DNA from: Candidatus Woesearchaeota archaeon
GTDB taxonomy: Archaea > Nanobdellota > Nanobdellia > SCGC-AAA011-G17 > PNOQ01
Direction: 5' to 3'
DNA: 64,000 nucleotides
Assembly: GCA_043812195.1 (NCBI GenBank)
Contig: JBDRML010000016.1
Coordinates: 22,093 to 86,092, forward strand
The translations under genes and the position numbers were made by a program. Positions 24,502-39,741 of this stretch are shown here, piece after piece; positions within the stretch are counted from its first letter, which is position 1, and each line of letters opens with the position of its first letter. The notes beneath the pieces are model-generated. The model was not told the origin of the DNA, ran no database searches, and saw only the letters and a list, made by a program, of their open reading frames with translations.

Positions 24502-25808
24502 TAGAACCTAAAAAATTAACATTAACAAAATCTTATGATTATTGGAAAAGAGCCGTAGAAGTAATTCCAAATGGTTGCATGACCATAAGCAATGGACCAA
24601 TAAGTTACATAACAAATGTTTCACCAATATACATTCAAAAAGGAAAGGGATGTAATGTATGGGATGTAGATGGAAATAAATTTTTAGATTTAGCTCCAGG
24701 AGGTTATTTAAAAATATTAGGCCATAACTACAAACCATTAACAAAAGCCATAATAAAACAAGTAAAAGATGATTCAATTTTCCAAATGCCACATCCGCTA
24801 GAAGTAGAAACAGCAGAAACAATAGTAAAGACAATTCCTAGTGCAGAAATGGTTAAATTTGCAAAAAACGGTGCAGATGTTTTAACTATGGGTGTAAGAG
24901 CAGCTAGAGCATACACAAACAGAGACATGATAGCTTCAGAAGGTTACCATGGAATACACGATTGGTATATCGGAACCACAGAAAGAAACAAAGGAGTTCC
25001 AGAAGCAGTCAAAAGATTAACAGCCACATTTAATTACAATGATATAGATTCACTTAAAAAAATATTCGAAAAATATCCAGACCAGATAGCATGCGTAACT
25101 TTAGAACCAGTTCAATTATCAGAGCCAAAAAATAACTTTTTACATCAAGTTAAAAAAATCACACATGAAAATGGCGCAGTATTAATGTTTGACGAGATAA
25201 TAACTGGATTCAGATTTTCACTCGCTGGAGCACAAGGTTATTTTGATATAAAACCAGATTTGTCAGCATTTGGCAAAGCAATGTCAAACGGATTCTCCTG
25301 TTCAGCTTTAGTTGGAAAATCAGATATAATGATGGAATTTGAAAAAGGTGCATTTTTCTCAACAACATACGGTGGAGAAACAACTGGACTAATAGCAGCA
25401 AAGAAAACAATAGAAATAATGAAAGAAAAAAATGTTCACGACCATCTTTGGAAAATGGGATCCATACTAAAAAATGGAATAAATAAAATCATAAAACAAA
25501 ATAATCTACAAGACCATTATTATATTCATGGATATCCTGTTTGGACAGTAATAAAAGCAAAAGGTGATGATAAAATAGGAACAGAAAACGAAAAAACTGG
25601 CTTATTGCAACAAGAAGCAATGCAAAGAGGAATGTTAGCAGGATTATTCCATGGATTATGCTACGCACATAAAGAAAAAGATATTCAAAAAGGATTAGAG
25701 ATTTACGAAGATTCTTTCAAAAAAGTTAAAAAGTACATTAATGAAGGGGATATCAAAAAACATCTAAAGGGAGAATACGGAGGAAAAGTATTCAGAAAAG
25801 TAGGTTAA
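24498..25808 (+). CDS. class III PLP-dependent aminotransferase (glutamate-1-semialdehyde aminomutase-like)
   Basis: FDEIITGFRFSLAGAQGYF ... AFGKAMSNG (PLP-lysine region) motifs. Confidence 0.65.
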   Translation: MIEPKKLTLTKSYDYWKRAVEVIPNGCMTISNGPISYITNVSPIYIQKGKGCNVWDVDGNKFLDLAPGGYLKILGHNYKPLTKAIIKQVKDDSIFQMPHPLEVETAETIVKTIPSAEMVKFAKNGADVLTMGVRAARAYTNRDMIASEGYHGIHDWYIGTTERNKGVPEAVKRLTATFNYNDIDSLKKIFEKYPDQIACVTLEPVQLSEPKNNFLHQVKKITHENGAVLMFDEIITGFRFSLAGAQGYFDIKPDLSAFGKAMSNGFSCSALVGKSDIMMEFEKGAFFSTTYGGETTGLIAAKKTIEIMKEKNVHDHLWKMGSILKNGINKIIKQNNLQDHYYIHGYPVWTVIKAKGDDKIGTENEKTGLLQQEAMQRGMLAGLFHGLCYAHKEKDIQKGLEIYEDSFKKVKKYINEGDIKKHLKGEYGGKVFRKVG

Positions 25809-25809
25809 T

Positions 25810-26613
25810 ATGAAATCAATAAAAGAACTATCAGATTTAAATAAAAAAGTAGCTATAATAACTGGAGCAGTCGGCAATCTGGGAATAGTTCATGCAGAAG
25901 CTCTAGCAGAATTAGGTTGTAATTTAGCACTAATAGATATTTTAGAAGATAAAGCAAGAGAATTAGCTCAAGACATTTCAAATAGATTTGGAGTTAAAGC
26001 TATAGGTCTAAAAATAGATTTATTCAAAAAAGAATCAATTGAAGAAACATTTCAAAAAATACATAATGAGATGGGAAGGATAGACATTCTAATTAACAGC
26101 GCGCAATATTCACCACCAGAAGATATAGAACCTGTAGAAACTTTTGATAAAGATGTTTGGGATAAAGTAATGGCAATAAATGTGACTGGAACTTTCTTGT
26201 GTTGTCAACAAGCATTAAAATATATGAAAGAAGGTGGATCAATTCTAAACATGGGCTCAATAATGGGAGTGATTGCACCAGACAGAAGAATCTATGAGGG
26301 TTCAACTTATGATGGAAAACAAATGAACAGCCCATTAGTATATTCAACTAGTAAAGCAGCCATAATTGGATTAACAAGATATTTAGCAGTAGATTTCGCA
26401 AAGAAAAATATCAGAGTAAACTGCATATCAGCAGCAGGCTTTGAAAGCGGCCAAACAGATTTATTCAAATCAAAATATAAAGACAAAATTCCAATGGCTA
26501 GAATGGCAAACAAAGAAGAACTTAAAGGAGCTATAGCCTATTTATGTTCAGATAATTCATCTTTCGTAACAGGTCATAATTTAATTTTAGATGGCGGCAT
26601 GTCTAGCTGGTAG
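25810..26613 (+). CDS. short-chain dehydrogenase/reductase (SDR)
   Basis: Gly-rich NAD(P) motif ITGAVGNLG; YSTSK catalytic Y-x3-K. Confidence 0.8.
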   Translation: MKSIKELSDLNKKVAIITGAVGNLGIVHAEALAELGCNLALIDILEDKARELAQDISNRFGVKAIGLKIDLFKKESIEETFQKIHNEMGRIDILINSAQYSPPEDIEPVETFDKDVWDKVMAINVTGTFLCCQQALKYMKEGGSILNMGSIMGVIAPDRRIYEGSTYDGKQMNSPLVYSTSKAAIIGLTRYLAVDFAKKNIRVNCISAAGFESGQTDLFKSKYKDKIPMARMANKEELKGAIAYLCSDNSSFVTGHNLILDGGMSSW

Positions 26614-27748
26614 ATTTTTTCAGTCTATAACTTTTATCATAATCTCCAGCCGAAAAATATCCTTTATACGCAGGGAAGAATTTATCATTAAATTCAATAT
26701 TATTCTCTTTACAGTAATTTCTTCTTAAATCAACAAATTTACCATAAACTTCTTGGTTAAAAATAATACCAGCACCTCTAAACATTCCTCTATCATCAGA
26801 AAACCCATATTTAAAATGATACAAAGAATCTCCAGGAGAATTTCCAGCACCTAAATGCAACCTTTTAACTCCTTTTTCCTTTAGATACTTAAAAGCCTCC
26901 CATAAAATAAGATTAGCAGGAGATAACGTCCAATAATCTTTATCTGAACCAGAGAAATGATAATGTGCGTAATCATTTCTATGAATAAAAAAAGAGCCAG
27001 CTATTACTTTCCCATCATATTTAGCAATAAACAAAGAAGCATCATCACCTAAAAAATCCATTGTATTTTTATAAAACTCAAATGGAAAAAAATACTTCTT
27101 TCCAGTATTAACAGCACGCATTCTTCCCAAATATAAATCAACAAAAGATTCAAGATCTCTCATATCTTTACTTTTATAAACTTGAATGCCACTTTTTTCA
27201 GCTTTTCTTATTTGATTTCTTGTTTTCTTCTTCATACTCATCAATATTTCATCAAGACTTTTAGTCAAATCAACATAAACCACATCTCTCTCATCAATAA
27301 GATTAACATGATCTTTAAAATCAAGATAATTATCAGTCATTGGGTGAAATCTAACAAATCCAGAAACTATATTATTCTTTAAACAATATTTATTCAAACT
27401 GGCCATAGATTCTTCAATAAGATCTTCTTTTTTACTTTGATTAGAACATTTTACAATTGGTCCATTGTATCCATAAACAGAAATTAAATCATAAAAATCA
27501 GAATTTTCAATGTAGGGCAAATCAATTTTTCTTTTCATAAAAGGAATTAAAACATAATCATTTTCATCCCCATAAACAAACATAAACGCCTCACCATTAA
27601 AAGCATCATCAATGTCTTTTCCATAACTCTGCTCATAAATTTTATTGTATCCACAAGAATAATACACATCACAGCCACAAGAACCATCTATTAAAGAATT
27701 CCACTCTTTTTCATCCTTTGTAGTTAAAACTCTGTTAGTGTAAACCAT
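26603..27748 (-). CDS. FemAB-like / GNAT-fold acyl- or aminoacyl-transferase
   Basis: 381 aa, size and pattern of FemAB-family transferases. Weak motif evidence. Confidence 0.35.
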   Translation of the reverse strand: MVYTNRVLTTKDEKEWNSLIDGSCGCDVYYSCGYNKIYEQSYGKDIDDAFNGEAFMFVYGDENDYVLIPFMKRKIDLPYIENSDFYDLISVYGYNGPIVKCSNQSKKEDLIEESMASLNKYCLKNNIVSGFVRFHPMTDNYLDFKDHVNLIDERDVVYVDLTKSLDEILMSMKKKTRNQIRKAEKSGIQVYKSKDMRDLESFVDLYLGRMRAVNTGKKYFFPFEFYKNTMDFLGDDASLFIAKYDGKVIAGSFFIHRNDYAHYHFSGSDKDYWTLSPANLILWEAFKYLKEKGVKRLHLGAGNSPGDSLYHFKYGFSDDRGMFRGAGIIFNQEVYGKFVDLRRNYCKENNIEFNDKFFPAYKGYFSAGDYDKSYRLKKSTS

Positions 27749-28775
27749 TTATCACCCCAACAATTCTATACATATCTCTCAAATTATACCTTTGATCTAT
27801 AGGGATAGTTAAAATATTATCTGAAACATCCCACGACTCTGAAAATTCTTCTTTACTAACATCTTTAGGCAAGATCCAATGAATAGAGGGATAAATCTTA
27901 TTCTGTATCAAAAACTTTCTAATTTTATCTCTATCTTTAACTATAATAGGACATCCTAAAGGACAAACATTCTTAGAAATCTTAGGAAATAAAACCTTAA
28001 CATTTTTCATAGTTTTTAGTTTATTAACTAAGTATAAATAATTTCTTCTTCTCTTAAAAATAATCTCTCTCAAATCTATTCTATTCAATAAAAACTTAGA
28101 AATTCCAGACATTGCAACAGGCCTATCATAACTATCAATAGATCTATCTTCAGCTTCAACAAAAAATTTCCTATAATGTTTCTTAAGAAAAATAAAATTC
28201 TTTAACAAACCACCAATTAACCTATTAGAAACAAAATCAGTTTTAGTATGATTAACCTTAACTCTCTTATTAAAATTGCCTAAAAGAAATGCACCATCTG
28301 GCAAAGGTAAAAACTTTCTATAACTATTAAATACATAATCTCCAACAAAAGGATAGCCAGATAAAAATGATTGAACATAATCCTCAACTAATTTAATTTC
28401 ATTTTTTTCACAAATTTCTTTTATTTTATTTATTTCAGGCTGAATAAACCCAAAGTAATGAATAACTAAAACAAATTTAGGTTTTTTCTTTAAAACTTTC
28501 TTCTTTAAATCAACAATATCAACATTCAAATTCTTATCAATTTTATAAAATCCACAATCTAACCCCCATTTCTTTAATGGATCTAAAATAGAATCACAAA
28601 AATAAGAAGGCAAAAGAATATAAGAATCTTTATTTAATCCAAGATCTTTAATAATATAATCTATACAATCCCTTCCGCTAGTTAAAAGAATAGAATTTCT
28701 TAAAATATTATTCCTCTTACTATTAAAAAACAATTCAAATCCTATTTCAAAATCACTACCAATTTCTCTAATCAT
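27735..28775 (-). CDS. divergent DegT/DnrJ/EryC1-like PLP-dependent sugar aminotransferase (or dehydratase)
   Basis: 346 aa; N-terminal GSDFE...LTSGRDCIDY resembles the DegT family. Confidence 0.35.
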   Translation of the reverse strand: MIREIGSDFEIGFELFFNSKRNNILRNSILLTSGRDCIDYIIKDLGLNKDSYILLPSYFCDSILDPLKKWGLDCGFYKIDKNLNVDIVDLKKKVLKKKPKFVLVIHYFGFIQPEINKIKEICEKNEIKLVEDYVQSFLSGYPFVGDYVFNSYRKFLPLPDGAFLLGNFNKRVKVNHTKTDFVSNRLIGGLLKNFIFLKKHYRKFFVEAEDRSIDSYDRPVAMSGISKFLLNRIDLREIIFKRRRNYLYLVNKLKTMKNVKVLFPKISKNVCPLGCPIIVKDRDKIRKFLIQNKIYPSIHWILPKDVSKEEFSESWDVSDNILTIPIDQRYNLRDMYRIVGVINGLH

Positions 28776-28777
28776 TT

Positions 28778-29908
28778 TTAATAGGTCATTTTTTTATTTA
28801 ATAGCTTCTCACCTAATTCTATCTCTTCTAATACTTCACAAATATTTTTTTCTACATTCTCAGAATGATAAGGATTAACCATATCTTTTAACTTTTCTTT
28901 AAATTCATTAGACAAAGCCAAAGAAATAGCTTCTCTAATCTTTTCTTCATCATGTGGAACATCAATAACATTGCCAGCTCTTTCACGTCCTTCTTCCCTA
29001 ATACCTATATTAATACAAGGCAATTTAAACATAGGGGTTTCAACAATACCTGAACTAGAATTTCCAACCATTAAAGAAACATTTCTCAAAATCCCCATAT
29101 AAACTTCCGGACTCAGATTTTTGAATACATGAAAATTAGGTAAATATTCATATCTTTTAATAGCCTCTATTATCTTATCAGAACCAGGATCATTACTTGG
29201 ATAAATAACAACAACCTGTTTATTTAAATCTCTAACAACTTTAAGGGTTAATTCCATGTATTCTCCTGCTTTCTCAAACTCAGTACTAACAGGGTGTTGC
29301 AAAACCAATATAGTCTCCTTAGAAAAATCTACTCCAATTTTCCTTTCTAACTCTTCTTTTGAATCATATTCTTTATACAAAGGTGTTCCAGTCATAAAAA
29401 CTCTCCAAGGTTCTTCACCCATTTTAATTATTCTTTCAGCGCTTTGATAAGAACCAGGTAAATGGATATGTGCAAATTTAGTTATAGAATGTCTAGTAGA
29501 ATCATCAATAGATTTAGAAACATCACCACCACAAGCATGAGCTACAGGAATATTCAAATGTGCAGCAGCAATAGCAGCAGGTAATTTCTCAAAACGATCT
29601 CCTTCTATTAATAATATATCTGGCTTAATTTCATCTAATGCTTTAGTAATTTCAATTAAAAATTTACCAAAAAAAATCGGTGTATTTAGATTACTTTCTT
29701 GGGTATCAACTCCTATATCAATTACCTTAGCAATCTTCAATCCAGTTTCCCTAACAAAATCCAAAGTATATCCATGTTCTCTAGATAAATGCATACCAGT
29801 AACAATTAAAGATAATTCTAAATTAGAATTTTCATCAATAGCTTTTAAGGTAGAATAGAGTAATCCAAACTCAGATCTAGATCCTGTAACACAAACAATC
29901 TTTCTCAT
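28778..29908 (-). CDS. neuC: UDP-N-acetylglucosamine 2-epimerase (hydrolysing), NeuC-like
   Basis: KIVCVTGSRSEFGLL N-terminus; IEGDRFE...PVAHACGGDVSKSIDDSTRHSITKFAHIHL core motifs. Confidence 0.8.
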   Translation of the reverse strand: MRKIVCVTGSRSEFGLLYSTLKAIDENSNLELSLIVTGMHLSREHGYTLDFVRETGLKIAKVIDIGVDTQESNLNTPIFFGKFLIEITKALDEIKPDILLIEGDRFEKLPAAIAAAHLNIPVAHACGGDVSKSIDDSTRHSITKFAHIHLPGSYQSAERIIKMGEEPWRVFMTGTPLYKEYDSKEELERKIGVDFSKETILVLQHPVSTEFEKAGEYMELTLKVVRDLNKQVVVIYPSNDPGSDKIIEAIKRYEYLPNFHVFKNLSPEVYMGILRNVSLMVGNSSSGIVETPMFKLPCINIGIREEGRERAGNVIDVPHDEEKIREAISLALSNEFKEKLKDMVNPYHSENVEKNICEVLEEIELGEKLLNKKMTY

Positions 29909-31080
29909 TCAAAATCATCATAAGAAGCAAGCTGGTCTTTATTAACATTATGCTTCAATTTTCTACCAATAACTTCTTCATATTTATTTGCTGTAATTCC
30001 CCTAGCATCTGCTCTTTTCATAACTAAATGAGCCTCATTCAAAACAGTCCCAGCAACCAATCCATCTCTAAAAACAACAGATTTTTGTACAACTGGTTTA
30101 ATAGTAATTTCTCTTTCACAAGGTTTTTTTTCAAAAGATCCAGCAATCAAATCAAAATATTTCGCACCAATTTTCTCTTTAAGATAATCTACTCTTTTAT
30201 TAATTGGTATCTTTTCCATCTCCTTTATTTCTTGGATCATTTCTTTCAGTTGGTCTACTGATAATGACGCTTTATGATCTGGGCCATATGCCATTCTATC
30301 ATACGTAAAATGTTTTTCAATAAGCTGCGCACCTAATGCAACTGCAACTAAAGAAACATGTATTCCAATTGTATGATCAGAATACCCAAATAAAGTTCCT
30401 AATTCATCTTTCATAGTTAACATAGCATTTATGTTAGAATCTTCATAACGAGCAGGATAATCGGTAGTACAATGTAAAAATATAACATCTTTATTACCTT
30501 GGCTATATATTGCTTCTTGAGCAGCTTTAATCTCTTTGATATTTCCCATACCTGTAGAGACAACTAATGGTTTCCCTAAAGATGCTAAAAATTTCAAATA
30601 AGAAATATTAGTTAATTCCCCAGAACCAACTTTAATAGCAGGAACCTTAGTTTCATTTACTAAAAACCTAGCACTCTTTTCCTCATCAGGAGTTGACATA
30701 AAAATTATTCCTTTTTCATCACAATATTTTTTTAATCCAACAAAATCATCATAACTTAATTCTAATTTTTTAATCATATCAAACTGAGTTTCACCAGCAC
30801 CCGTCTGTTCCTCTTGATAAGAAGCCTTAGCTGTATCTGGTAAACAAAGTTCTTCAGTTATCCATGTTTGAAACTTAACAGCATCAGCGCCAGCATCTTT
30901 AGCAATATCTATTAACTGTTTAGCCTTCTCAACATCTGCATCATGGCAAACTCCAGCCTCAGCAATTATAAAAACAGGATTTCCAGGACCTATTTTTTTC
31001 CCAGTTATGTTTAACTCCATTAAATATAGAAACAAATAACTCCTTATAAAAATTATGTAAAGATGTTCTAAAACTAACAA
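29905..31080 (-). CDS. neuB: N-acetylneuraminate (nonulosonic acid) synthase, NeuB-like, with C-terminal SAF domain
   Basis: GPGNPVFIIAEAGVCHDADVEKAKQLIDIAKDAGADAVKFQT. Confidence 0.85.
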   Translation of the reverse strand: MLVLEHLYIIFIRSYLFLYLMELNITGKKIGPGNPVFIIAEAGVCHDADVEKAKQLIDIAKDAGADAVKFQTWITEELCLPDTAKASYQEEQTGAGETQFDMIKKLELSYDDFVGLKKYCDEKGIIFMSTPDEEKSARFLVNETKVPAIKVGSGELTNISYLKFLASLGKPLVVSTGMGNIKEIKAAQEAIYSQGNKDVIFLHCTTDYPARYEDSNINAMLTMKDELGTLFGYSDHTIGIHVSLVAVALGAQLIEKHFTYDRMAYGPDHKASLSVDQLKEMIQEIKEMEKIPINKRVDYLKEKIGAKYFDLIAGSFEKKPCEREITIKPVVQKSVVFRDGLVAGTVLNEAHLVMKRADARGITANKYEEVIGRKLKHNVNKDQLASYDDFE

Positions 31081-31089
31081 AAATAATAC

Positions 31090-31887
31090 TCAAAGAGCAA
31101 TAGAATATCCACAATCTACTAGAATATTTTGTCCAGTTATTGCACTACTTCTATCAGAAAGCAAAAATAAAACAGAGTCAGCAACTTCCTCAGGCCTAAC
31201 ACCTCTGTGCAAAGGAGCCCTTTCATTAAAACGATCAATCAAATCCTTCTTCTCTTTACTACTAGAACAAGCTTCTAAAACCTTACGTGTTTCAACATTT
31301 CCAGGAGAGACCGTATTAACCCTTATTCTTTTCTCTCCAAAAGTATTTGCATAAGCTCGAGTCATAGCTCCAAGACCTCCTTTAGAAATTGCATATAAAA
31401 CAGTATTAGGATTTTGCATATCTGCATTAATAGAACTTATGTTAACAATAGATCCACCTTCAGACATTTTAGGATACAATAATTCTATCAAATTGAATGG
31501 TGCTCTAGTGTTCACTGAAATAACTCTATCAAAAGATTCAATAGATCTTCCACCATGAGAGTCATCCTTTCCTAAAATAGCAGCATTATTCACTAAGCCA
31601 TAAATAGTATCAAATCTATCACTATCAAAAATTTCTTTCATTCTATCAAAATCAGAAACATCGCCTTGAAAATAATCAATTTTTTGGTGAGGAACCAATA
31701 AATTACTAAGTTCTGATTTATCAAATTCCAAAGAATCTATTCCAATAACATAAGCATTTTCTTGCACCAATTCACTAGAGATTATTGCACCTATTCCACT
31801 TCCAGCACCAGTAACTACAACCTTTTTTCCTTTTAAATTTAAATTCATTTTAAAATAATCTCTCAATAACTTTATGTTCAAGCCCAT
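31090..31887 (-). CDS. short-chain dehydrogenase/reductase (SDR)
   Basis: KKVVVTGAGSGIGA; YAISKGG Y-x3-K. Confidence 0.75.
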   Translation of the reverse strand: MGLNIKLLRDYFKMNLNLKGKKVVVTGAGSGIGAIISSELVQENAYVIGIDSLEFDKSELSNLLVPHQKIDYFQGDVSDFDRMKEIFDSDRFDTIYGLVNNAAILGKDDSHGGRSIESFDRVISVNTRAPFNLIELLYPKMSEGGSIVNISSINADMQNPNTVLYAISKGGLGAMTRAYANTFGEKRIRVNTVSPGNVETRKVLEACSSSKEKKDLIDRFNERAPLHRGVRPEEVADSVLFLLSDRSSAITGQNILVDCGYSIAL

Positions 31888-32602
31888 TTAACCCCTCTTG
31901 AACCCTTGGTTCTTTTAAGGGAAGCATCCATAATCTACCATTATTCACATGTTCATTATTTTCATCCAACATAGGAAACTTAGCTATATATTTTAAACCT
32001 ACTAACTCTTGCATTTTTTCTGCAAATTTAGTAGATGCTAAATCATCAGACTCTATAGAAGTATATGTAGTAATATGTTCAGCACCTTCTTGTTCAGAAA
32101 GCCTCACTGCAGCCAAATAAGCAAATGTTCCAAATCCTTTTCTTCTTACACTCTCCAAAAAAGCCATTTCCCAACAATGTGCTTGATTAGACCATTCTCC
32201 ATGAATCTCTAATTCAGAATCTCCATTTTTATCTTTTCCAGCCTTATAATGATAACCATCTGTAGGTTTAGCATGAACCCTAACACCCACAATCTCATCA
32301 TTAGAATCATAACACATTACAACACTATTTCCTACTTTATCTTCAAACTCCCTACTCCTAATATAAAACTCGTCTCTTAAATGAACATCTCCTCTTCTAA
32401 CTAAATCAATAACACGTTTAGGCAAGGGATTCCCTTCACAATCAGTCAAATCCATTTCAGTAATTACACAATTATAAAGAGTGTCATTATAAACGTTCTT
32501 AGACAATCTCAAAAGATCATTAGCAAGCCCATCAACACTACCTTGTCTAAAAACATGACCATCTTTGGTAGGTTGGCCCAAATAATCTAAAACTTTTTTC
32601 AT
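31850..32602 (-). CDS. hypothetical protein, possible GNAT-type N-acetyltransferase
   Basis: RRKGFGTFAYLAAVR resembles the acetyl-CoA binding motif; context in a nonulosonic acid operon. Weak. Confidence 0.3.
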   Translation of the reverse strand: MKKVLDYLGQPTKDGHVFRQGSVDGLANDLLRLSKNVYNDTLYNCVITEMDLTDCEGNPLPKRVIDLVRRGDVHLRDEFYIRSREFEDKVGNSVVMCYDSNDEIVGVRVHAKPTDGYHYKAGKDKNGDSELEIHGEWSNQAHCWEMAFLESVRRKGFGTFAYLAAVRLSEQEGAEHITTYTSIESDDLASTKFAEKMQELVGLKYIAKFPMLDENNEHVNNGRLWMLPLKEPRVQEGLNGLEHKVIERLF

Positions 32603-32723
32603 AATTTAAAGAAATTTACAACCGTTTTTAAAGCTTATGGTGGCATTTTAAAGTGTATAAAAACCGAACATATAGTCTTTAATTACACATTATTTATAAA
32701 CAAAACCACTTTTCCAAAAATGA

Positions 32724-33830
32724 ATGATACCAATTACAAAACCAACATTACCAAAATATGAAGAGGTAGAAAAAGAGCTAAGAAATATAATTGAAAGTGG
32801 CATGATTACAAATGCCAAATATGTAAGAGAATTAGAAAAAAATGCAGCAGAATATATTCAAATCCCAGACACTGCGGCACTCTCATCATGCACATCTGGT
32901 TTAATCCTAACACAAAAACTATTAAATCTAAAAGGAGAAGTAATACTTCCAAGTTTCACATTTCATGCAACTGCACATTCATTAGTTTGGAACAATTTAA
33001 AACCTAAATTCGTAGACATAGAAGAAAATCACTACAATATAGATCCACAAAAAGTAAATGAAGCCATAACTCCAAACACATCAGCAATTCTAGCAGTACA
33101 CATGTTTGGTCATCCAGCAGATACAAAAGCACTTCAAGAAATAGCAAAAGATAACAACTTAAAATTAATTTTTGATGCTGCACACGCCTTCGGCTCTAAA
33201 ATAAACAATTTAAACATAGGTAGATTTGGAGATGCAGAGGTCTTCAGTCTATCACCAACAAAATTATTAACCGCAGGTGAAGGAGGAATAGTATCTTCCA
33301 ATAATAAAGTGTTAATAAAAAAATTAAAAATAGCAAGAAATTACGGAGATGATGGAAGTTATAATTGTGAATATTCTGGATTAAATGCAAGAATGTCTGA
33401 ATTAAATGGAATTTTAGGCATTAAAACATTACAACAATTAGACCAAAATATAGAAAATAGAAACAAGCTAGCAGAATTCTACAAACAAAAATTATCAAAA
33501 TTAAAGATAGGTTTTCAAAAAATAGCTCCAAATGTAAAAACTACTTACAAAGATTTCTCTTTATATATTAACCCAGAAGAAATAGGCATTAACAGAGATG
33601 AATTATGTAATCAATTGGAAAAGAAAGGGATTATATCTAAAAAATACTTTTACCCTCCAGTCCACAAACAAACAGCATTTAAAGAATTCAACAATTTAAG
33701 GTATCCAATTACAGAAAAAGTTTCCACAAACGTTTTAAGTGTACCACTTTACTCCCACATGAAAAAAACAGAGGTAGAAAAGGTGTGTGATGCTATTTCT
33801 ACTATAATTCAAGAAAATGGAAGAAAATAA
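32724..33830 (+). CDS. DegT/DnrJ/EryC1/StrS family PLP-dependent sugar aminotransferase
   Basis: 368 aa; FDAAHAFGSK and SLSPTKLLTAGEGG (PLP-lysine region). Confidence 0.8.
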   Translation: MIPITKPTLPKYEEVEKELRNIIESGMITNAKYVRELEKNAAEYIQIPDTAALSSCTSGLILTQKLLNLKGEVILPSFTFHATAHSLVWNNLKPKFVDIEENHYNIDPQKVNEAITPNTSAILAVHMFGHPADTKALQEIAKDNNLKLIFDAAHAFGSKINNLNIGRFGDAEVFSLSPTKLLTAGEGGIVSSNNKVLIKKLKIARNYGDDGSYNCEYSGLNARMSELNGILGIKTLQQLDQNIENRNKLAEFYKQKLSKLKIGFQKIAPNVKTTYKDFSLYINPEEIGINRDELCNQLEKKGIISKKYFYPPVHKQTAFKEFNNLRYPITEKVSTNVLSVPLYSHMKKTEVEKVCDAISTIIQENGRK

Positions 33831-35238
33831 CAAGATAGACATGATACTTATACAAGAAAATGCAACTTTAAGAGATGTAATGAACAATATTGATAATTCT
33901 GGATTAGGCATATGCATAATAATAAACAATGAAAAGAAAATAAAGGGAATATTATCTGATGGAGATATAAGAAGAGCAATTCTAACAGGACACTCAATAG
34001 AAGATTCCGCATCTAAAATAATGAATAAAAATCCAACTATAGTTACAGGAAACTTCTCACTAAAAGAATTAGAAAAAACAATAAAAGAAAAAAAAATAAA
34101 CGGAAAAATACCAATAATAGATGAAGATGGGAAAATTATAGATTTAGCAATAATACCAGAACAAAAAATTAGATTCTTATCAAAACATAACGTAGCTGAA
34201 ATGCCAATGAAAAAAATACTGATCACAGGTGGTGCCGGTTATTTAGGATCAATCCTTTGTAGAAAGTTGTTAGAAAGGGGTTATGAAGTAAGAGTTTTAG
34301 ACAATTTAACATATGGAGATGATTCAATAAAAGATCTTTATGATAATCCAAATTTCGAACTAAAAATAGGAGACATTAGGCATATTGAAAACATAAGTAA
34401 AAATATACAAGACGTAAATGCAGTTGTTCATTTAGCAGGCATAGTAGGAGATCCTGCATGTGGGTTAGATCCACAACAAACCATAGAACAAAATCTTTTA
34501 GCAACTATGGCATTAGCACAAACTTGCAAGCATTTCCAAGTAAACAGATTTTTATTCGCATCAAGCTGTTCAGTTTACGGAGAAAATAATGATGTTCTTA
34601 CAGAAGAATCAAAATTAAATCCAATATCAGTTTATGGAAAAGATAAAATAGAAAGTGAAAAAGCTATCTTAAATTTAGCAAATGAAAACTTTTCCCCAAC
34701 AATACTAAGAATGGGAACACTATATGGTCCTTCTTATAGGATGAGATTTGATTTAGTATTGAACACAATAACTACATTAGCAATAAAAGAAGGAAAATTC
34801 TGCATATTCGGTGGAAACCAATGGAGACCTATGTTACATGTAAACGATGCGGCAGATGCTTACATAAAAGTTCTTGAAGCCCCGCTAAACAAAATAGGAA
34901 GAGAAATATTTAATATTGGTTCTGACGAAGGAAACCACAAAATCATAGATATTGGGAAAAAAGTAAAAGAAATTATTCCAGAAGCAATAATGGAAATAAA
35001 TGCAGAAGAAGTAGACGAAAGAAACTATAGAGTAAGTTTCAAAAAACTAAGAGAAACTCTAAGTTTTGAACCAAAAAAAACTATAAAAGATGGAATAATT
35101 GAAATTAAAACTATGACAGAAAGAGGAGAACATATAGACTTCAGAAATCCAAAATATAATAATTATATTTTTCTTAAAAATAAAAATTTAAAAGAATATA
35201 GGAGTAATATAAACTTCCAAGAAAGCAGCAAACAATAG
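33817..35238 (+). CDS. CBS-domain pair fused to NAD-dependent nucleotide-sugar epimerase/dehydratase (extended SDR)
   Basis: N-terminal CBS pair; KKILITGGAGYLGSILCRKL Rossmann motif; YGKDK catalytic Y-x3-K. Confidence 0.75.
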   Translation: MEENNKIDMILIQENATLRDVMNNIDNSGLGICIIINNEKKIKGILSDGDIRRAILTGHSIEDSASKIMNKNPTIVTGNFSLKELEKTIKEKKINGKIPIIDEDGKIIDLAIIPEQKIRFLSKHNVAEMPMKKILITGGAGYLGSILCRKLLERGYEVRVLDNLTYGDDSIKDLYDNPNFELKIGDIRHIENISKNIQDVNAVVHLAGIVGDPACGLDPQQTIEQNLLATMALAQTCKHFQVNRFLFASSCSVYGENNDVLTEESKLNPISVYGKDKIESEKAILNLANENFSPTILRMGTLYGPSYRMRFDLVLNTITTLAIKEGKFCIFGGNQWRPMLHVNDAADAYIKVLEAPLNKIGREIFNIGSDEGNHKIIDIGKKVKEIIPEAIMEINAEEVDERNYRVSFKKLRETLSFEPKKTIKDGIIEIKTMTERGEHIDFRNPKYNNYIFLKNKNLKEYRSNINFQESSKQ

Positions 35239-36036
35239 CATCGCCACAGCAATCAAAACTAAATCAATAGCATCTATCATTATATTCTTAAATCTGCCAG
35301 TTTCTAAATCCTTATTTATCATAGCAACAGAAATTATTCCGCCAGCTAATCCACCAACAAAATAAGCAGCAATCTCTGGAACACCATGAATAATATATCT
35401 CAATAACCCTAAAGAAAAAGCATGGAAATAACTAACAGCTCCAACACCACCAGCAGCTGCCCACATAGCTAACTTATCTTTAATGAAACTACCCATCGCA
35501 GCAGATATCACAGAAGCATTCCAAGTCAAAATAAATATAGCTCCAGCTCCAAAAAAGAACGCAAAGAATAATGAAAATAATAAGACTTTAAAATTATTCA
35601 AAAATATATGTAAAAAAATAGCGCCAGAACCAACAGCATCACCAACAATTTTACTATTAATCGCGCCAATAGTTTCTAATTGACTAGAAAATAAAGATTG
35701 AACTATAGTTGTAGGCAACACAACAAACCATACTGCAAATGCCAATAAAAACCCAACAAACATAAACAATAAATAACGCAAAGTCTTTCCATGATGGCTC
35801 AATAAATCTACTTGATCTTTAGACTTAGCAGCCTCTTCCTCTTCAGATTTCATAGATTTGTACATTAAAGGAACACTAACTAAAACAGTCAACAAAACCA
35901 TAATTAAACTAGAATAAGCTCTAAATATCCATGTAGCCAAAAACACAGCCACAGTAGCATATAAAAAACCTATAAACAAAAGTTCCCAAGGTCTTTTTAT
36001 TGCCCTTATCGGCGTTGACAAAGATTCTAAAGCCAT
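35188..36036 (-). CDS. SpoIIM/DUF95-like integral membrane protein
   Basis: 282 aa, 6 TM helices, Gly/Ala-rich helices resembling the stage II sporulation protein M family. Confidence 0.35.
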   Translation of the reverse strand: MALESLSTPIRAIKRPWELLFIGFLYATVAVFLATWIFRAYSSLIMVLLTVLVSVPLMYKSMKSEEEEAAKSKDQVDLLSHHGKTLRYLLFMFVGFLLAFAVWFVVLPTTIVQSLFSSQLETIGAINSKIVGDAVGSGAIFLHIFLNNFKVLLFSLFFAFFFGAGAIFILTWNASVISAAMGSFIKDKLAMWAAAGGVGAVSYFHAFSLGLLRYIIHGVPEIAAYFVGGLAGGIISVAMINKDLETGRFKNIMIDAIDLVLIAVAMLLFAAFLEVYITPIFF

Positions 36037-36441: not shown

Positions 36442-36471
36442 TACAAACAACAATATTTTTCTTTTTTATTT

Positions 36472-37506
36472 TTAATTTAATAATTCTTTCTGACTAATAT
36501 GTATATTCTTTTCTTCATATATCTTGTATATAACTAATAATATAGATAAAATCAAAGGACCAACTATAATTCCAACCATTCCAAATAAAGATATTCCTCC
36601 AACTATCCCTAACAAAATTATTACTGGATCTATTTTGGATCTTTTTCCTATAAAAATAGGTTTAAGGAAAGTATCTACATAAGTCAACAAAATTCCAGAA
36701 TAAATTATCAAAAGAATCCCATTTGTTACTTGGTTATTAATTAAAAGATATATAGCAGCAAATGGCCATACTAATAAAGGTCCAACAACAGGAATCATTG
36801 CAAACAAAGCTATAACAAGTGCCCATATAATTGGATTAGGAACTCCAAATAAAGAAAAACCAATCCACGCTATTACACCTTCTAAAATAGCAATTAAAAA
36901 TAAGCCCTTGAACAAACCTTTAATTATGCTATTTATTTCAGAGAATAATTTATCTTTATCCTCTTTTTTCATTGGAAACAATTTCTTAATTTTTGAAATT
37001 ATTTCAGTGCCTCTAATTAAAAGAAGATAAATTAGAAAAAACATTATTAAAAGACTAATTGTTCCCTTAGCCAAAAATTCTATTATTTTAGAACTTGATA
37101 GCAAGAAGAACTTTGATACTTCTTCTAAATTTTCCCTTATATGTCTCTCAAAATTTATGTTTAACCCAGTTACTTCTTTAAGAGTTTCTGAAACAGATGT
37201 CAACTCTAAATTATTAGCAGAATTAAAGGTATTTATAGCCTGATTAAATAAAGTATTTGCAAAAAAGATTAGTGGAATTATTATAAAAACAACTATAAGT
37301 ACTATAATAATAAGAGATGATAATCCTTTCTTTTTAATCTTTTTATTTATCCTTAAGTATACTGGATGTAATAATATAGTAAAGATTATTGCCCCTAAAA
37401 GAGCTGGCAACAAAGGTTCTATTACTTTATATGATAAATATATTAGTAATAATACTATTATTAGCAAAATATATCTACTATAATCTTTAAGATTTACTGA
37501 AACCAT
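36472..37506 (-). CDS. AI-2E family transporter (PerM/UPF0118-like membrane protein)
   Basis: 344 aa, 7-8 TM helices; family-typical segment GLFKGLFLIAILEGVIAWIGFSLFGVPNPIIWALVIALFAMIPVVGPLL. Confidence 0.6.
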   Translation of the reverse strand: MVSVNLKDYSRYILLIIVLLLIYLSYKVIEPLLPALLGAIIFTILLHPVYLRINKKIKKKGLSSLIIIVLIVVFIIIPLIFFANTLFNQAINTFNSANNLELTSVSETLKEVTGLNINFERHIRENLEEVSKFFLLSSSKIIEFLAKGTISLLIMFFLIYLLLIRGTEIISKIKKLFPMKKEDKDKLFSEINSIIKGLFKGLFLIAILEGVIAWIGFSLFGVPNPIIWALVIALFAMIPVVGPLLVWPFAAIYLLINNQVTNGILLIIYSGILLTYVDTFLKPIFIGKRSKIDPVIILLGIVGGISLFGMVGIIVGPLILSILLVIYKIYEEKNIHISQKELLN

Positions 37507-37583
37507 TAATAAAATACTCTTGTTTTAGTTTATAAATATTATCATTAGTTAGAATTATTTAAAAATAAAGAAGAAGAAAAAAA

Positions 37584-39593
37584 TTATTTTTTCTTTTTCA
37601 ACACACTGAATAATATTATTGCTATTATAACTATCGCAACAATAACTATTATCCATACATAGCCTGTCGTACTTGGCACAGTAGATGTATCTCCAGCCGT
37701 AGTTGTAGTATCTGATTCATCATCACCTGACGTAGTCTGAGTTTCAACAAGACCTGTTATCCTAAAGTCGGCTTCATTATTCACATTTATTCTCAATAAT
37801 TTAACCATGGTATCGTCAATTCCGTTATCATTCAAATCAAATTGTTTTTCCTGTCCGACTGTAAATGTCGATGTAACAGGTGCAGATCTAATTGTTATTG
37901 TTGCTGTACCAGTAACAGAATCAGCTGAATCTACAGTAATTGAATGTCCAATTCCACTTAATCTAAAGCTATGGCTTTCTCCAGCTCCTAATCCTCTTGC
38001 AGTAGTGCTTCCACCATCTTCTATATCAACTAATTCCTCTGTTTCTGTTTCATCTCCAGTATCACTAGCTCCACCACCAGTATCTGTATCACCACTACCT
38101 CCAGACGCAGCTATCGCAACTGTAATTTGTCTCGTTCCGGATGCTCCTCGTCTTCCAGATTTGTCGTAACAATAAATATACCAATCGACATTTTCACCTT
38201 CTAGGTTACTATTATCTGTAGTAGTTATTGTGAAATTAACCACAGTATCTGTAATCGTAGTTGTATTAGAAAATAACACATTATTAAGACTTAGTGTACA
38301 ATTATTCACAATACCATTCTCACCCGTCACATCACTAACAACATATATAAAAGTCGTAGAACCATCTATATCAGAATCGCCATCTACTGGAGATAATGAA
38401 GTTATATTTGGATCCCAAGTATCAATAGCAAATGTTCTATTACTCGTCACATTAAACATTGCATTTGAATTGTTATCATAAGCTAAGCAATTCCACTTAT
38501 ATGTAACATTAGTTCCATTATCAGTGCTCTGATCACTTGCATTAGTCAAATTAGTGTAACCAGTTATGTTAAATAATTCAGACCAAGTTCCATTTTCTGC
38601 TCCGCTAACATTAATACTATAATTAAATGCCTGTGCCCCACTAGTAGCATTCCAAACCATAAAGACCATACTTGATATATTAGCTGCACGATTAACACTA
38701 TTGGGTGTTGTAGGTGTCGCACTACAATTAAATCCATTAGGACTAGTATTGGTAAACCATGTATCATTGTTAACTCCCGCGTGTGTTGTAGCTATAGTCA
38801 AAGTATCAAAGATAAATGTGCTACTTACATTACTATTACTAGCATTGTCAAAACACTGCACATACCATTCTAATGTATCATCAAAAATATCCAACGATGT
38901 AATTGAAAAATTAGTCATTGATCCGTTTCTATGTGTTGATGTATTAGTTTCATTTATTGCACCATTCAAATACAAACTACAATTCTTCTCAACCCTTACA
39001 GCACCAGATAAAGCACCTATAGAATCTGATACGTTAAATGAAAATTGGAACGCTCTACTATTAGTAGGTCCACTAAATATTGTTCTGTTCAGTGTATCGC
39101 CATGCCAATTCATAGTAATGGCTGGAGCTACAGAATCTAAACCAAACGTACGGTTAGATGTATTATAACTATAATTACCATCTTTAAATGCAGCATAACA
39201 ATTCCATGACCAATTAAGTCCTCCATCCATCTCAGTTAAATTTGTAACAGTAAAATTTACAGTTAAAGTTCCATTAACCGCGCTCTCATTACTATAACCA
39301 TAATCTGCACTAGTTGAATTTACTAATACTTGCAAAGCAGTAGAATTTCCACTTGTATTTGTAGTATTCCAAACCAAAAGAGTTATACTAGTAACATTAG
39401 TATCTCCTGTAGCTGTTGCAGAACAATTAAAAGTCATATTATTTCCTGAAGTGGTCCAATAATTATCAGCTGGTGAATTAAAAGTAACAGGCCCTACATC
39501 ACCCTTAGCCATAAAAGCCATAACAATAATAATTAAAATATATATAAAGATTCTCCCGTAATTAAAATTTTTCTTCAATAAAAACACCTCCAT
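37584..39593 (-). CDS. cell-surface glycoprotein: N-terminal signal/anchor, ~600-aa ectodomain saturated with N-x-S/T sequons, Thr/Ser-rich linker, C-terminal TM anchor + KKKK
   Basis: Seen directly: dozens of N-x-T/S sequons (NMTFNCSATATGDTNVTSITLLVWNTTNTSGNSTALQVLVNSTS...); C-terminus ...TTTTAGDTSTVPSTTGYVWIIVIVAIVIIAIILFSVLKKKK. Confidence 0.6.
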   Translation of the reverse strand: MEVFLLKKNFNYGRIFIYILIIIVMAFMAKGDVGPVTFNSPADNYWTTSGNNMTFNCSATATGDTNVTSITLLVWNTTNTSGNSTALQVLVNSTSADYGYSNESAVNGTLTVNFTVTNLTEMDGGLNWSWNCYAAFKDGNYSYNTSNRTFGLDSVAPAITMNWHGDTLNRTIFSGPTNSRAFQFSFNVSDSIGALSGAVRVEKNCSLYLNGAINETNTSTHRNGSMTNFSITSLDIFDDTLEWYVQCFDNASNSNVSSTFIFDTLTIATTHAGVNNDTWFTNTSPNGFNCSATPTTPNSVNRAANISSMVFMVWNATSGAQAFNYSINVSGAENGTWSELFNITGYTNLTNASDQSTDNGTNVTYKWNCLAYDNNSNAMFNVTSNRTFAIDTWDPNITSLSPVDGDSDIDGSTTFIYVVSDVTGENGIVNNCTLSLNNVLFSNTTTITDTVVNFTITTTDNSNLEGENVDWYIYCYDKSGRRGASGTRQITVAIAASGGSGDTDTGGGASDTGDETETEELVDIEDGGSTTARGLGAGESHSFRLSGIGHSITVDSADSVTGTATITIRSAPVTSTFTVGQEKQFDLNDNGIDDTMVKLLRINVNNEADFRITGLVETQTTSGDDESDTTTTAGDTSTVPSTTGYVWIIVIVAIVIIAIILFSVLKKKK

Positions 39594-39728
39594 ATTTTTA
39601 TAGTAGTTTTTATAATAGTATTATATCCTATTTTTTAGTATCATAATCCTTATATATAAAACTTTTGATTTTTGCAGAATTTTTTTAAATACTTTATTTG
39701 TTTGGTATAAAATATCAAATAAAAAAAA

Positions 39729-39741
39729 CGCCGCGACTGGG
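39729..39741. repeat. 13-bp copy of the 3' end of the tRNA gene at 40446..40560 (att-like direct repeat)
   Basis: Seen directly: CGCCGCGACTGGG at 39729..39741 equals 40446..40458. Confidence 0.55.

What the first reader, a model, noticed from the sequence alone, without database searches (positions are those of the whole stretch)
37584..39593. Surface protein with extreme N-glycosylation sequon density next to the glycan factory
The ectodomain reads like a string of N-x-S/T sites (roughly every 8-12 residues). It ends in a Thr-rich linker, a single TM helix and KKKK, the layout of archaeal S-layer or surface glycoproteins. It is separated from the 35-kb glycan island only by a transporter and a membrane protein. 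It is likely the principal acceptor for the N-glycan assembled by the island, and a possible host-interaction or immune-evasion coat.
Basis: seen in the sequence. Interest (0 to 1): 0.5.

Follow-up and report, generated by a model that had tools for sequence, protein, structure and literature searches.

The report
Sequon-dense membrane-anchored archaeal surface glycoprotein
This gene from an uncultured Woesearchaeota (DPANN) archaeon encodes a membrane-anchored surface protein made of immunoglobulin-like modules; its 44 N-glycosylation motifs are far more than chance gives and are conserved in relatives, but it is not the S-layer protein and belongs to a kind of DPANN surface protein already described.

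Summary
ORF 37584-39593 (-) encodes 669 aa with 44 N-x-S/T sequons, all in residues 52-455. Composition-matched shuffles give 17.8 +/- 3.5. Control patterns sit at background, and every other protein in the window has at most 2.4 sequons per 100 aa against 6.6 here. The sequons are under selection: 33-34 of 44 are kept in register in orthologs of about 41-48% identity, where about 4 are expected by chance.

The protein has a signal peptide and four Cys-paired Ig-like modules (an A-B-A-B duplication). These are followed by a linker, a sequon-free, confidently modelled beta-barrel domain, a Thr-rich stalk, a TM helix and KKKK.

It is not the S-layer protein. A PF05124 S-layer homolog lies 2.9 kb away, is sequon-poor and has no anchor.

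The link to the glycan island is supported for close orthologs only. In two of them the gene sits inside a legionaminic-acid-type nonulosonic-acid operon. Positional orthologs always lie in one conserved surface block.

No oligosaccharyltransferase is in the window. "Principal acceptor" cannot be tested, and "immune evasion" has no evidence here.

The module family is large in DPANN archaea, and comparable proteins were described in Nanobdella. This is a new member of a known kind, of moderate interest.

The parts
37584..39593 (-). Whole ORF, 669 aa from ATG 39593. The probable true start is TTG 39578, giving the 664-aa NCBI product ABIH25_01815 of a Candidatus Woesearchaeota MAG.
39651..39660 (-). 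TATA-like box TTTATATATA, about 60 nt upstream of the start
   Evidence: Read directly from the sequence. That it acts as a promoter is inferred.
39585..39591 (-). GGAGGTG Shine-Dalgarno-like motif, 6 nt upstream of TTG 39578
   Evidence: the NCBI start comes
39504..39593 (-). Signal peptide region (residues 1-30): basic n-region, hydrophobic helix 12-26, then AKG/D
   Evidence: Sequence plus model helix 12-26. No signal-peptide predictor was run.
39123..39500 (-). Ig-like module A1 (residues 32-157), Cys57-Cys132 pair, 15 sequons
38799..39122 (-). Ig-like module B1 (residues 158-265), Cys205-Cys247 pair
38409..38798 (-). Ig-like module A2 (residues 266-395), Cys290-Cys369 pair; paralog of A1
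   Evidence: The two halves align end to end
38100..38408 (-). Ig-like module B2 (residues 396-498), Cys432-Cys475 pair; paralog of B1; the most widely repeated module of the family
38223..39440 (-). Sequon-bearing stretch (residues 52-457) holding all 44 N-x-S/T sites
38031..38099 (-). Gly/Asp/Thr-rich disordered linker 1 (residues 499-521)
   Evidence: pLDDT below 50; a 21-nt x2 DNA repeat lies here
37749..38030 (-). Sequon-free membrane-proximal beta-barrel domain (residues 522-615). It recurs just before the C-terminal anchor in many DPANN surface proteins.
37659..37748 (-). Thr/acidic-rich stalk linker 2 (residues 616-645)
37587..37658 (-). C-terminal TM helix (646-665) plus KKKK cytoplasmic tail (666-669)
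   Evidence: the same tail occurs in orthologs
36472..37506 (-). AI-2E-family transporter, 77 bp downstream on the same strand; a conserved neighbour in syntenic loci
35188..36036 (-). SpoIIM-like membrane protein, conserved neighbour that marks the edge of the glycan island
23046..35238 (.). Legionaminic-acid-type nonulosonic-acid gene set: CMP-sugar synthetase 23046-23795, FemAB-like 26603-27748, DegT-like 27735-28775, NeuC-like 28778-29908, NeuB 29905-31020, SDR, GNAT, DegT 32724-33830, CBS-fused dehydratase 33817-35238
   Evidence: compared with the Halorubrum Leg set in PMC6137143
42478..44685 (-). S-layer candidate (735 aa; PF05124 S_layer_C, E 1e-8). It has a signal peptide, no TM anchor and only 8 sequons.

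Best explanation
The gene encodes a Sec-exported, type-I membrane-anchored surface glycoprotein of a Woesearchaeote.

Anatomy. Four disulfide-bearing Ig-like beta-sandwich modules form the outer part; they arose by tandem duplication of a two-module A-B unit. They sit on a pedestal made of a flexible Gly/Asp/Thr linker, a compact sequon-free beta-barrel domain and a Thr-rich acidic stalk. A single TM helix and a KKKK cytoplasmic tail follow.

Shown. The Ig-like part carries an N-x-S/T sequon about every nine residues. These motifs are maintained by purifying selection.

Inferred. During or after translocation the archaeal oligosaccharyltransferase AglB loads most of these Asn residues with a lipid-linked glycan. 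The Ig-like rod would then be almost fully covered by glycan. It would project from the membrane past the sequon-poor, unanchored S-layer protein encoded 2.9 kb away. The sequon-free pedestal would stay in the space under the S-layer. The glycan probably includes a legionaminic-acid-type nonulosonic sugar made by the adjacent island. The protein would then act mainly as a glycan-presenting, protease-resistant outer coat or contact surface, in which the conserved functional surface is the glycan rather than the polypeptide.

It is one small member of a very large DPANN family of sequon-dense surface proteins. These share the Ig-like modules, and many also share the pedestal plus TM anchor.
For: Sequon excess and specificity: 44 sequons against 17.8 +/- 3.5 expected, with control patterns at background. 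The target is the lone outlier among the window's proteins.

Selection on sequons:
- 33 and 34 of 44 sequons are kept in register in P0002 and P0003, against about 4 expected. 29 are shared by all three proteins.
- Sequon Asn is conserved 75-82%, against 28-31% for other Asn.
- There are 14-15 S<->T swaps that keep the sequon.

Fold: the AlphaFold model is all-beta with five domains. Helices appear only at the signal peptide and the TM segment. Foldseek hits are strings of Ig/FN3/MG domains. Distant relatives carry Pfam Big_7, Big_3_3 and Big_13. 39 of 44 sequon Asn lie in strands or at strand edges.

Internal duplication and Cys pairs.

Pedestal domain: pLDDT above 90 and no sequon. It is found immediately before the anchor in proteases, giant proteins and 400-aa short forms.

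Family-wide trait: 163 relatives have a median of 5.65 sequons per 100 aa, 2.6 times expectation. Genome loci reach z = 24.

Context:
- Orthologs sit inside NeuB/NeuC/DegT operons.
- Positional orthologs are always in the block flippase - SpoIIM - ... - AI-2E - ... - S_layer_C.
- In every such locus the S-layer homolog is sequon-poor (1.1-1.7 per 100 aa) and unanchored. The Ig-like protein is sequon-dense (5.0-6.9 per 100 aa) and TM-anchored.

Literature:
- DPANN archaea have AglB (aglBDE in Nanobdella).
- An archaeal N-glycan capped with legionaminic acid exists in Halorubrum sp. PV6, with the same enzyme set (PMC6137143).
Against: - No glycan, glycopeptide or expression data exist for this organism.
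- No AglB gene is in the 64-kb window, and the rest of the genome could not be examined.
- Nothing shows that the island's product is N-linked. The island also carries a teichoic-acid-type glycerophosphotransferase, an LPG-synthase-like protein and a phosphonate-type ABC transporter.
- Linkage to nonulosonic-acid genes holds only within one lineage. RuBisCO/AMP-salvage genes are equally syntenic there, so inheritance alone may explain part of it.
- The Ig-like part of the model has only moderate confidence (pLDDT 50-85).
- The placement relative to the S-layer is pure inference.
Confidence: 0.6

Rival explanations
1. It is a SlaB-like S-layer anchor. In this reading the TM-anchored, glycosylated beta-sandwich protein tethers the unanchored S_layer_C protein lattice to the membrane, as SlaB does for SlaA in Sulfolobales.
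For: - The layout is signal peptide, beta-sandwich domains, S/T-rich linker and C-terminal TM helix. This resembles SlaB (PMC6911244).
- The S-layer candidate has no TM or lipid-anchor signal.
- The two genes lie within 2.6-7 kb of each other in 5 of 7 loci.
- A comparable Nanobdella protein was proposed as SlaB-like.
Against: - There is no coiled-coil. The model has helices only at the signal peptide and the TM segment.
- The gene is never adjacent to the S-layer gene. Here a tRNA, a ParE module and two other genes lie between them.
- The genes that always flank the S-layer gene are two small membrane proteins (p166, p227). These are better anchor candidates.
- Positional orthologs have two, three or four Ig modules, which a fixed-spacing lattice anchor would not tolerate easily.
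- The pedestal plus TM module is shared with proteases and proteins of 2,000 aa and more, so it is a generic anchor.
Confidence: 0.2
2. It is primarily a protein-mediated adhesin or receptor, for example for a host cell or a substrate. The Ig-like polypeptide surface would bind the ligand, and the glycans would only be protective decoration.
For: - Foldseek matches include cell-adhesion molecules and the bacterial adhesin MpIBP.
- DPANN Ig/PKD-fold surface proteins are widely predicted to mediate host contact.
Against: - The invariant columns among orthologs are mostly core residues (W, C, F, G, P) and sequon Asn. No conserved non-sequon surface stretch stands out in that list, although no surface analysis was done.
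- With a sequon about every nine residues, and 39 of 44 in or at the edge of strands, little polypeptide surface would stay accessible if the sites are occupied.
- There is no head or ligand-binding domain, unlike the protease-bearing relatives.
Confidence: 0.15
3. The sequon excess is a by-product of beta-strand polar alternation and AT-rich codon bias, and the sites are not glycosylated.
For: - The genome has about 29% GC, and the protein contains 10.9% Asn and 24.8% Ser+Thr.
- Most sequons lie in or next to strands, where i/i+2 polar alternation is expected.
Against: - Shuffles that keep composition give 17.8, not 44.
- The mirror pattern [ST]-x-N, which alternation would enrich equally, is at expectation (18).
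- Sequons are kept in register with S<->T swaps across about 55% sequence divergence.
- Other AT-rich secreted proteins of the same window are not enriched.
Confidence: 0.03

Closest known systems
[quoted passage not shown]
   Same: - DPANN origin.
- 4-7 Ig-like folds, many predicted N-glycosylation sites (13-52) and a C-terminal TM helix.
- Enzyme-headed variants exist, as with the subtilisin-headed relatives P0006 and P0008 found here.
   Different: - No sequence relationship to those proteins was tested here.
- The present protein has a higher site density (6.6 per 100 aa overall, about 10 per 100 aa in the Ig-like part).
- Conservation of its sequon positions is demonstrated.
- It has a defined non-Ig pedestal domain.
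- In its orthologs it lies in or next to a nonulosonic-acid cluster.
SlaB, the membrane stalk of the Sulfolobales S-layer (PMC6911244)
   Same: Sec signal, consecutive beta-sandwich domains, an S/T-rich glycosylated linker, a C-terminal TM helix and heavy N-glycosylation. It is encoded in a genome whose canopy protein lacks an anchor.
   Different: - No coiled-coil trimerisation domain.
- Not adjacent to or co-transcribed with the S-layer gene.
- The number of modules varies among orthologs.
- No sequence similarity.
Haloarchaeal S-layer glycoproteins (Haloferax volcanii; Halorubrum sp. PV6, PMC6137143)
   Same: Archaeal surface glycoprotein with a Thr-rich membrane-proximal region and a C-terminal hydrophobic segment. 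In Halorubrum the N-glycan is capped by a legionaminic acid made by the LegB/C/H/G/I/F set, which is also present in this window.
   Different: - Those proteins have 7 sequons in about 800 aa, against 44 in 669 here.
- They form the lattice themselves.
- They carry a PGF-CTERM/ArtA signal, which is absent here.
Bacterial Ig-like domain families Big_7 (PF17957), Big_3_3 (PF13750) and Big_13 (PF19077)
   Same: Distant relatives of the target carry these Pfam domains. The target's modules are Ig-like beta-sandwiches in the model.
   Different: The target itself does not reach significance for any of them; the best is Big_7 at E = 0.33. In this archaeal branch the modules carry consensus sequons and a Cys pair.
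Domain I of class II fusion proteins (flavivirus E, alphavirus E1, EFF-1/HAP2, archaeal Fsx1) and the Methanosarcina S-layer DUF1608 domain
   Different: - Only a single small barrel is shared.
- There is no domain II or fusion loop, and the domain order differs.
- The Foldseek match is not significant (E 0.019), and identity is about 10%.
- This is fold resemblance only.

Membership tests
Archaeal S-layer protein (Methanococcales type, PF05124 S_layer_C / TIGR01564) | Significant match to the S-layer family profiles | tested here: not met
   The target has no Pfam or NCBIfam hit. The neighbour 42478-44685 matches PF05124 at 1e-8.
AglB-dependent N-glycoprotein | N-x-S/T sequons in an exported, extracytoplasmic segment | tested here: met
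   All 44 sequons lie between the signal peptide and the C-terminal TM helix. They are enriched and conserved.
AglB-dependent N-glycoprotein | An oligosaccharyltransferase (AglB/STT3, WWDxG motif) encoded in the genome | not testable with these tools
   None is in the 64-kb window. The contig could not be extended. The 539-aa island membrane protein has no OST similarity. The literature reports AglB in DPANN archaea.
AglB-dependent N-glycoprotein | Glycan demonstrably attached to Asn | not testable with these tools
   This needs mass spectrometry or deglycosylation experiments.
SlaB-like S-layer anchor | Signal peptide, consecutive beta-sandwich domains and a C-terminal TM helix | tested here: met
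   SlaB layout from PMC6911244
SlaB-like S-layer anchor | Alpha-helical coiled-coil stalk for trimerisation | tested here: not met
   The model has helices only at 12-26 and 647-665.
SlaB-like S-layer anchor | Gene adjacent to and co-transcribed with the canopy S-layer gene | tested here: not met
   The two genes are 2.9 kb apart here, with a tRNA, a ParE module and two other genes between them. They are never adjacent in the syntenic loci.
Archaeosortase substrate (PGF-CTERM and related) | PGF/PEF/VPXXXP motif before the C-terminal TM helix, with a match to the sorting-signal models | tested here: not met
   The tail scanned at E <= 1 gave no CTERM sorting model. The sequence reads ...STTGYVWIIV..., without PGF.
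Bacterial Ig-like domain families (Big_7, Big_3_3, Big_13) | Pfam profile match at or above the gathering score | tested here: inconclusive
   For the target's modules the best is Big_7 at E 0.33. Relatives P0004, P0005, P0009 and others carry these domains. The fold is Ig-like.
Class II fusion protein / fusexin | Three-domain ectodomain: domain I barrel with domain II insertions bearing a fusion loop, domain III, stem and TM | tested here: not met
   Only a domain-I-like barrel without insertions is present. The Ig modules precede it rather than follow it.
Legionaminic-acid-type nonulosonic-acid pathway (for the neighbouring island) | LegB-like dehydratase, LegC-like aminotransferase, acyltransferase, NeuC-like LegG, NeuB-like LegI and a CMP-sugar synthetase | tested here: met
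   Met at the Pfam-family level only: Epimerase+CBS, DegT, GNAT/FemAB-like, Epimerase_2, NeuB and CTP_transf_3. The reference set is in PMC6137143. The identity of the sugar was not tested.

The most novel reading that the evidence does not exclude
The protein is a dedicated glycan carrier, a mucin-like protein with N-linked rather than O-linked glycans. In the closest relatives it is encoded inside the nonulosonic-acid operon. Its legionaminic-acid-type capped glycan coat, rather than any polypeptide surface, would be what this Woesearchaeote presents to partner cells or viruses. The sequon-free pedestal resembles domain I of class II fusion proteins and recurs before the anchor in many DPANN surface proteins. 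It would then be a so far unnamed DPANN-wide display module that carries glycan-cloaked rods, proteases and giant adhesins out through the S-layer.
Probability: 0.15. Interest if true: 0.65.

Novelty: new member of a known kind. Interest (0 to 1): 0.35.

Why it matters
No cell-surface protein of Woesearchaeota has been characterised, and little is known about S-layers in the newer archaeal phyla (PMC5744192).

This locus gives a clean pair for that question. One protein is an unanchored, sequon-poor S-layer candidate. The other is an anchored protein whose conserved features are almost only its fold and its glycosylation sites. If the sites are occupied, the site density exceeds the archaeal examples met here (7 sequons in about 800 aa in haloarchaeal S-layer glycoproteins; 13-52 sites in the Nanobdella proteins). 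Glycans, possibly capped with a sialic-acid-like sugar, would then be the main outward face of these small, possibly partner-dependent cells.

The register-conserved sequons are concrete targets for metaproteomic glycopeptide searches. The pedestal domain is a candidate for a new domain family covering many DPANN proteins.

The general picture is already in the literature: DPANN surface proteins with Ig-like folds, many sequons and a C-terminal TM helix. This is an incremental, well-documented example rather than a surprise.

Tried and rejected
- Pfam and NCBIfam on the whole protein and on each module, at E <= 1, gave nothing significant.
- A sequence profile against the PDB gave no hit.
- WWDxG/AglB motif search in six frames found none, either in the window or in about 800 kb of fetched DPANN loci.
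- Extending the 139.8-kb NCBI contig beyond the window failed, because the record is not indexed.
- The unannotated 539-aa multi-TM island protein (1908-3527; "PWWDAEG" in its first loop) was tested as a possible OST. Its homologs are all hypothetical, and it has no PDB or Pfam similarity. It is rejected as evidence for an OST.
- A general link between the module family and nonulosonic-acid genes was tested. None of about 44 distant genome loci has NeuB, NeuC or DegT within 10 kb. The link is rejected beyond the orthologous lineage.
- DNA-level repeats as the cause of the sequons were rejected.
- The fusogen reading of the pedestal domain was rejected. There is no domain II or fusion loop, and the Foldseek match is not significant.
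- The afdb50 fold library was unavailable.
- Rfam found no RNA family in the window.
Full report
**1. The observation**

It is the hypothetical protein ABIH25_01815 of a Candidatus Woesearchaeota MAG, on a 139,779-bp contig. NCBI starts it at the TTG at 39578. That codon is preceded by GGAGGTG at a 6-nt spacing, and a TATA-like TTTATATATA lies about 60 nt upstream. The 664-aa form is therefore probably the real one.

The protein has 44 N-x(not P)-S/T sequons, all between residues 52 and 455, with median spacing 8 residues.

- 20,000 composition-preserving shuffles give 17.8 +/- 3.5, and none reaches 44.
- The excess is directional. The mirror pattern [ST]-x-N occurs 18 times, N-[ST] 14 times and N-x-x-[ST] 13 times, all at background. 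This argues against simple polar alternation in beta-strands.
- Among about 65 ORFs in the window, the target has 6.6 sequons per 100 aa and no other ORF exceeds 2.4.
- No DNA tandem repeat underlies the sequon-rich part.

**2. Selection on the sequons**

Only three full-length relatives exist among 5.8 billion clustered proteins: P0002 (44%), P0003 (41%) and the shorter P0004 (28%).

- In the alignment, 33 and 34 of the 44 sequons are kept in exact register in P0002 and P0003, where about 4 would be shared by chance. 29 are shared by all three proteins.
- Asn inside sequons is conserved 75-82%, against 28-31% for other Asn.
- In 14-15 sites the hydroxy residue has swapped between S and T while the sequon is retained.
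- The middle position is no more conserved than the background.

This is the signature of purifying selection on the motif itself.

**3. Anatomy**

The two halves of the ectodomain align end to end. This gives an A-B-A-B arrangement with one Cys pair per module: 57/132, 205/247, 290/369 and 432/475.

The AlphaFold model (18-sequence alignment, mean pLDDT 66.8) is all-beta. It shows:

- four sandwich modules (32-498);
- a disordered Gly/Asp/Thr linker (499-521);
- a fifth, well-predicted domain (522-615, pLDDT 86-93);
- a disordered Thr/acidic linker (616-645);
- a TM helix (647-665).

The only other helix is the signal-peptide core.

Foldseek against the PDB returns strings of Ig/FN3/macroglobulin domains: PirB, alpha-2-macroglobulins, NCAM2, the MpIBP adhesin and the Deinococcus HPI S-layer protein. 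This is a generic beads-on-a-string Ig-like fold. The target matches no Pfam or NCBIfam model, even module by module, and no PDB sequence. Its distant relatives carry Big_7, Big_3_3 and Big_13.

39 of the 44 sequon Asn lie in strands or within two residues of a strand end. No PGF-CTERM-type sorting signal is present.

**4. The sequon-free pedestal**

The region from about residue 470 to the TM helix has no sequon in the target, P0002, P0003 or P0004.

An HMM of residues about 525-612 finds the same domain in a range of DPANN surface proteins. In most hits it lies within about 60-100 residues of the C-terminus, and in several with a recognisable anchor it sits just before it. The proteins include subtilisin-headed ones (P0006, P0008), giant proteins (L011, L017, L022, L027) and others.

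Modelled alone, the domain reaches pLDDT above 90.

- Foldseek gives the same top hit, but at E = 0.019.

There are no domain II insertions and no fusion loop. I take this as a fold resemblance, not as membership of the fusogen family.

**5. The family**

A profile search of 1.84 billion representatives finds 4,876 proteins at E <= 1e-3, 2,118 at E <= 1e-10 and 242 at E <= 1e-30. They include proteins of up to 7,719 aa with up to 31 matched repeats. There is also a set of roughly 400-aa short forms with the layout signal peptide - A - B - pedestal - TM - KKKK.

Across 163 fetched relatives the median is 5.65 sequons per 100 aa, 2.6 times the compositional expectation. In 46 genome loci from Woese-, Pace-, Nano- and Aenigmatarchaeota MAGs, the matched ORFs reach z = 24.

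Sequon density is therefore an ancestral property of this module family. The target ranks only 44th of 163.

[quoted passage not shown] One of them was proposed as a SlaB-like anchor, and aglBDE genes are present in that genome (bioRxiv 10.1101/2023.10.27.564410).

**6. Context**

The window's first 35 kb are indeed a glycan island. It contains:

- GT2 and GT4 glycosyltransferases, a Wzx-type flippase, GDP-mannose dehydratase and methyltransferases;
- a CDP-glycerol glycerophosphotransferase domain;
- a full legionaminic-acid-type nonulosonic-acid set: a CBS-fused dehydratase, two DegT aminotransferases, GNAT and FemAB-like acyltransferases, NeuC-like, NeuB and a CMP-sugar synthetase.

The nonulosonic-acid set matches the LegB/C/H/G/I/F set of Halorubrum sp. 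PV6, whose N-glycan is capped by a legionaminic acid (PMC6137143).

In the two closest orthologs the gene lies inside the sugar cluster on the same strand as its neighbours:

- in L001, 68 bp upstream of NeuB-NeuC-DegT-FemAB;
- in L002, between two GFO/IDH-type oxidoreductase genes.

P0004 and the short forms P0036, P0045 and P0056 are positional orthologs in one conserved block: glycosyltransferases/flippase - SpoIIM - (e2B2, HAD, RuBisCO) - Ig-like protein - AI-2E/AMP phosphorylase - ... - two small membrane proteins - S_layer_C protein. In L052 and L054 a run of small, unannotated ORFs follows, and in L052 a roughly 1,200-aa protein as well. The window has a similar order from 35 to 54 kb.

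The RuBisCO salvage genes are equally syntenic. None of the distant module-sharing loci has nonulosonic-acid genes within 10 kb. The linkage is therefore suggestive for this lineage only.

**7. It is not the S-layer protein**

The 735-aa protein at 42478-44685 matches PF05124 at E 1e-8 and, more weakly, TIGR01564. It has a signal peptide, the typical ...VAGWEKADT... C-terminus, no TM helix and 8 sequons.

In every syntenic locus where both genes are present, the S-layer homolog has 1.1-1.7 sequons per 100 aa (z 0.3-2.7) and no anchor. The Ig-like neighbour has 5.0-6.9 per 100 aa (z 5-10) and a TM helix with a basic tail (KKKK in the short forms). This consistent division of labour is the most informative new observation.

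**8. Mechanism**

- Shown: the topology signals, the fold class, the internal duplication, the sequon excess and its conservation, and the neighbourhood.
- Inferred: that AglB, which is known in DPANN archaea, loads most sites; that the glycan comes at least partly from the island; that the pedestal stays below the S-layer while the glycan-covered rod projects beyond it; and that the function is a protective or recognition glycan coat.

The SlaB-like anchor reading is the main rival, at about 0.2. In its favour are the layout and the unanchored S-layer protein. Against it are the missing coiled-coil, the lack of adjacency to the S-layer gene, the variable module number and the generic use of the pedestal plus TM module by enzymes and giant proteins.

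No oligosaccharyltransferase was found in the window. The 539-aa multi-TM island protein is not recognisably one.

**9. Verdict**

The protein is a new, small, duplicated member of a known kind: DPANN Ig-like, sequon-dense, TM-anchored surface proteins.

Two modestly new points emerge. The first is the register-conserved sequons and the operonic placement with nonulosonic-acid genes in close orthologs. The second is an unnamed, widespread pedestal domain with a fold like domain I of class II fusion proteins.

Interest is about 0.35.

Noticed in passing
window 40443-40561 (-); repeat copies at 39728-39744 and 40445-40461: A tRNA-Ser(TGA) with a 31-nt intron is found only by intron-aware ARAGORN; default ARAGORN and Rfam miss it. 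Its 3' 17 nt are duplicated 717 bp away. The two copies bracket a ParE toxin gene (40062-40373) and a 49-aa antitoxin-like ORF (39923-40072, + strand). This looks like a small element integrated at the tRNA 3' end, directly upstream of the target gene.
   Followed up: partly
window 40493-41137 (-): A LAGLIDADG-motif ORF (41018-41137, 'LALFLGMVIGDGSI') and the 131-aa ORF 40493-40888 look like a frame-shifted, decayed homing endonuclease. An intact 211-aa LAGLIDADG gene sits at a comparable position, upstream of the p227/p166/S-layer genes, in L003. The 131-aa ORF overlaps the tRNA-Ser gene.
   Followed up: partly
window 41209-42395 (-) and 42478-44685 (-): Two small N-terminally anchored membrane proteins (227 and 166 aa, no family) lie immediately downstream of the S_layer_C gene here and in L003, L052, L054 and L056. 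They are candidate S-layer partners or anchors. The S-layer gene has a higher GC content (0.36) than its surroundings.
   Followed up: partly
window 47541-55054 (-): Several small ORFs start with an M-K/R-K/R-G-Q motif followed by a hydrophobic stretch, resembling class III (type IV pilin-like) signal peptides: 47541-49217, 50122-50613 and 54218-55054. They flank a 1,203-aa protein with no family (50610-54221). L052 has a similar run of small unannotated ORFs and a 1,207-aa protein next to its S-layer gene.
   Followed up: no
window 45040-47321: A Fic/DOC protein (45040-45990) and an AAA_14/DUF4143 ATPase (46053-47321) lie between the S-layer gene and the pilin-like block. No Fic or AAA/DUF4143 gene was annotated at the corresponding place in L052, so this is probably an insertion.
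   Followed up: no
window 1908-3527 (+): A 539-aa multi-TM protein at the start of the glycan island has a soluble C-terminal part and 'PWWDAEG' in its first loop. It is conserved (41-60% identity) in a handful of metagenomic or MAG proteins, one on the same contig as ortholog P0003, but has no Pfam, NCBIfam or PDB match. It may be an unclassified GT-C-like enzyme.
   Followed up: partly
window 13941-19292: Inside the glycan island there is a phosphonate-type substrate-binding protein with ABC components (13941-16478). There is also a 647-aa fusion of a SAM methyltransferase with a CDP-glycerol glycerophosphotransferase domain (17349-19292). This suggests that a teichoic-acid-like or phosphonate-decorated polymer is made in addition to any N-glycan.
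   Followed up: no
L001, L002, L003, L052, L054, L056 versus window 35000-40000: In all related loci a form III RuBisCO/AMP-salvage set (e2B2-like isomerase, HAD, RuBisCO, often AMP phosphorylase) lies next to the Ig-like protein gene. In the window these genes are absent from that position, so this lineage has rearranged the block.
   Followed up: partly
P0006, P0008 (relatives, not in the window): Subtilisin-family proteases carry the same sequon-dense Ig modules, pedestal domain and TM anchor at their C-terminus. The module set therefore serves as a general surface-display stalk for enzymes in DPANN archaea.
   Followed up: partly
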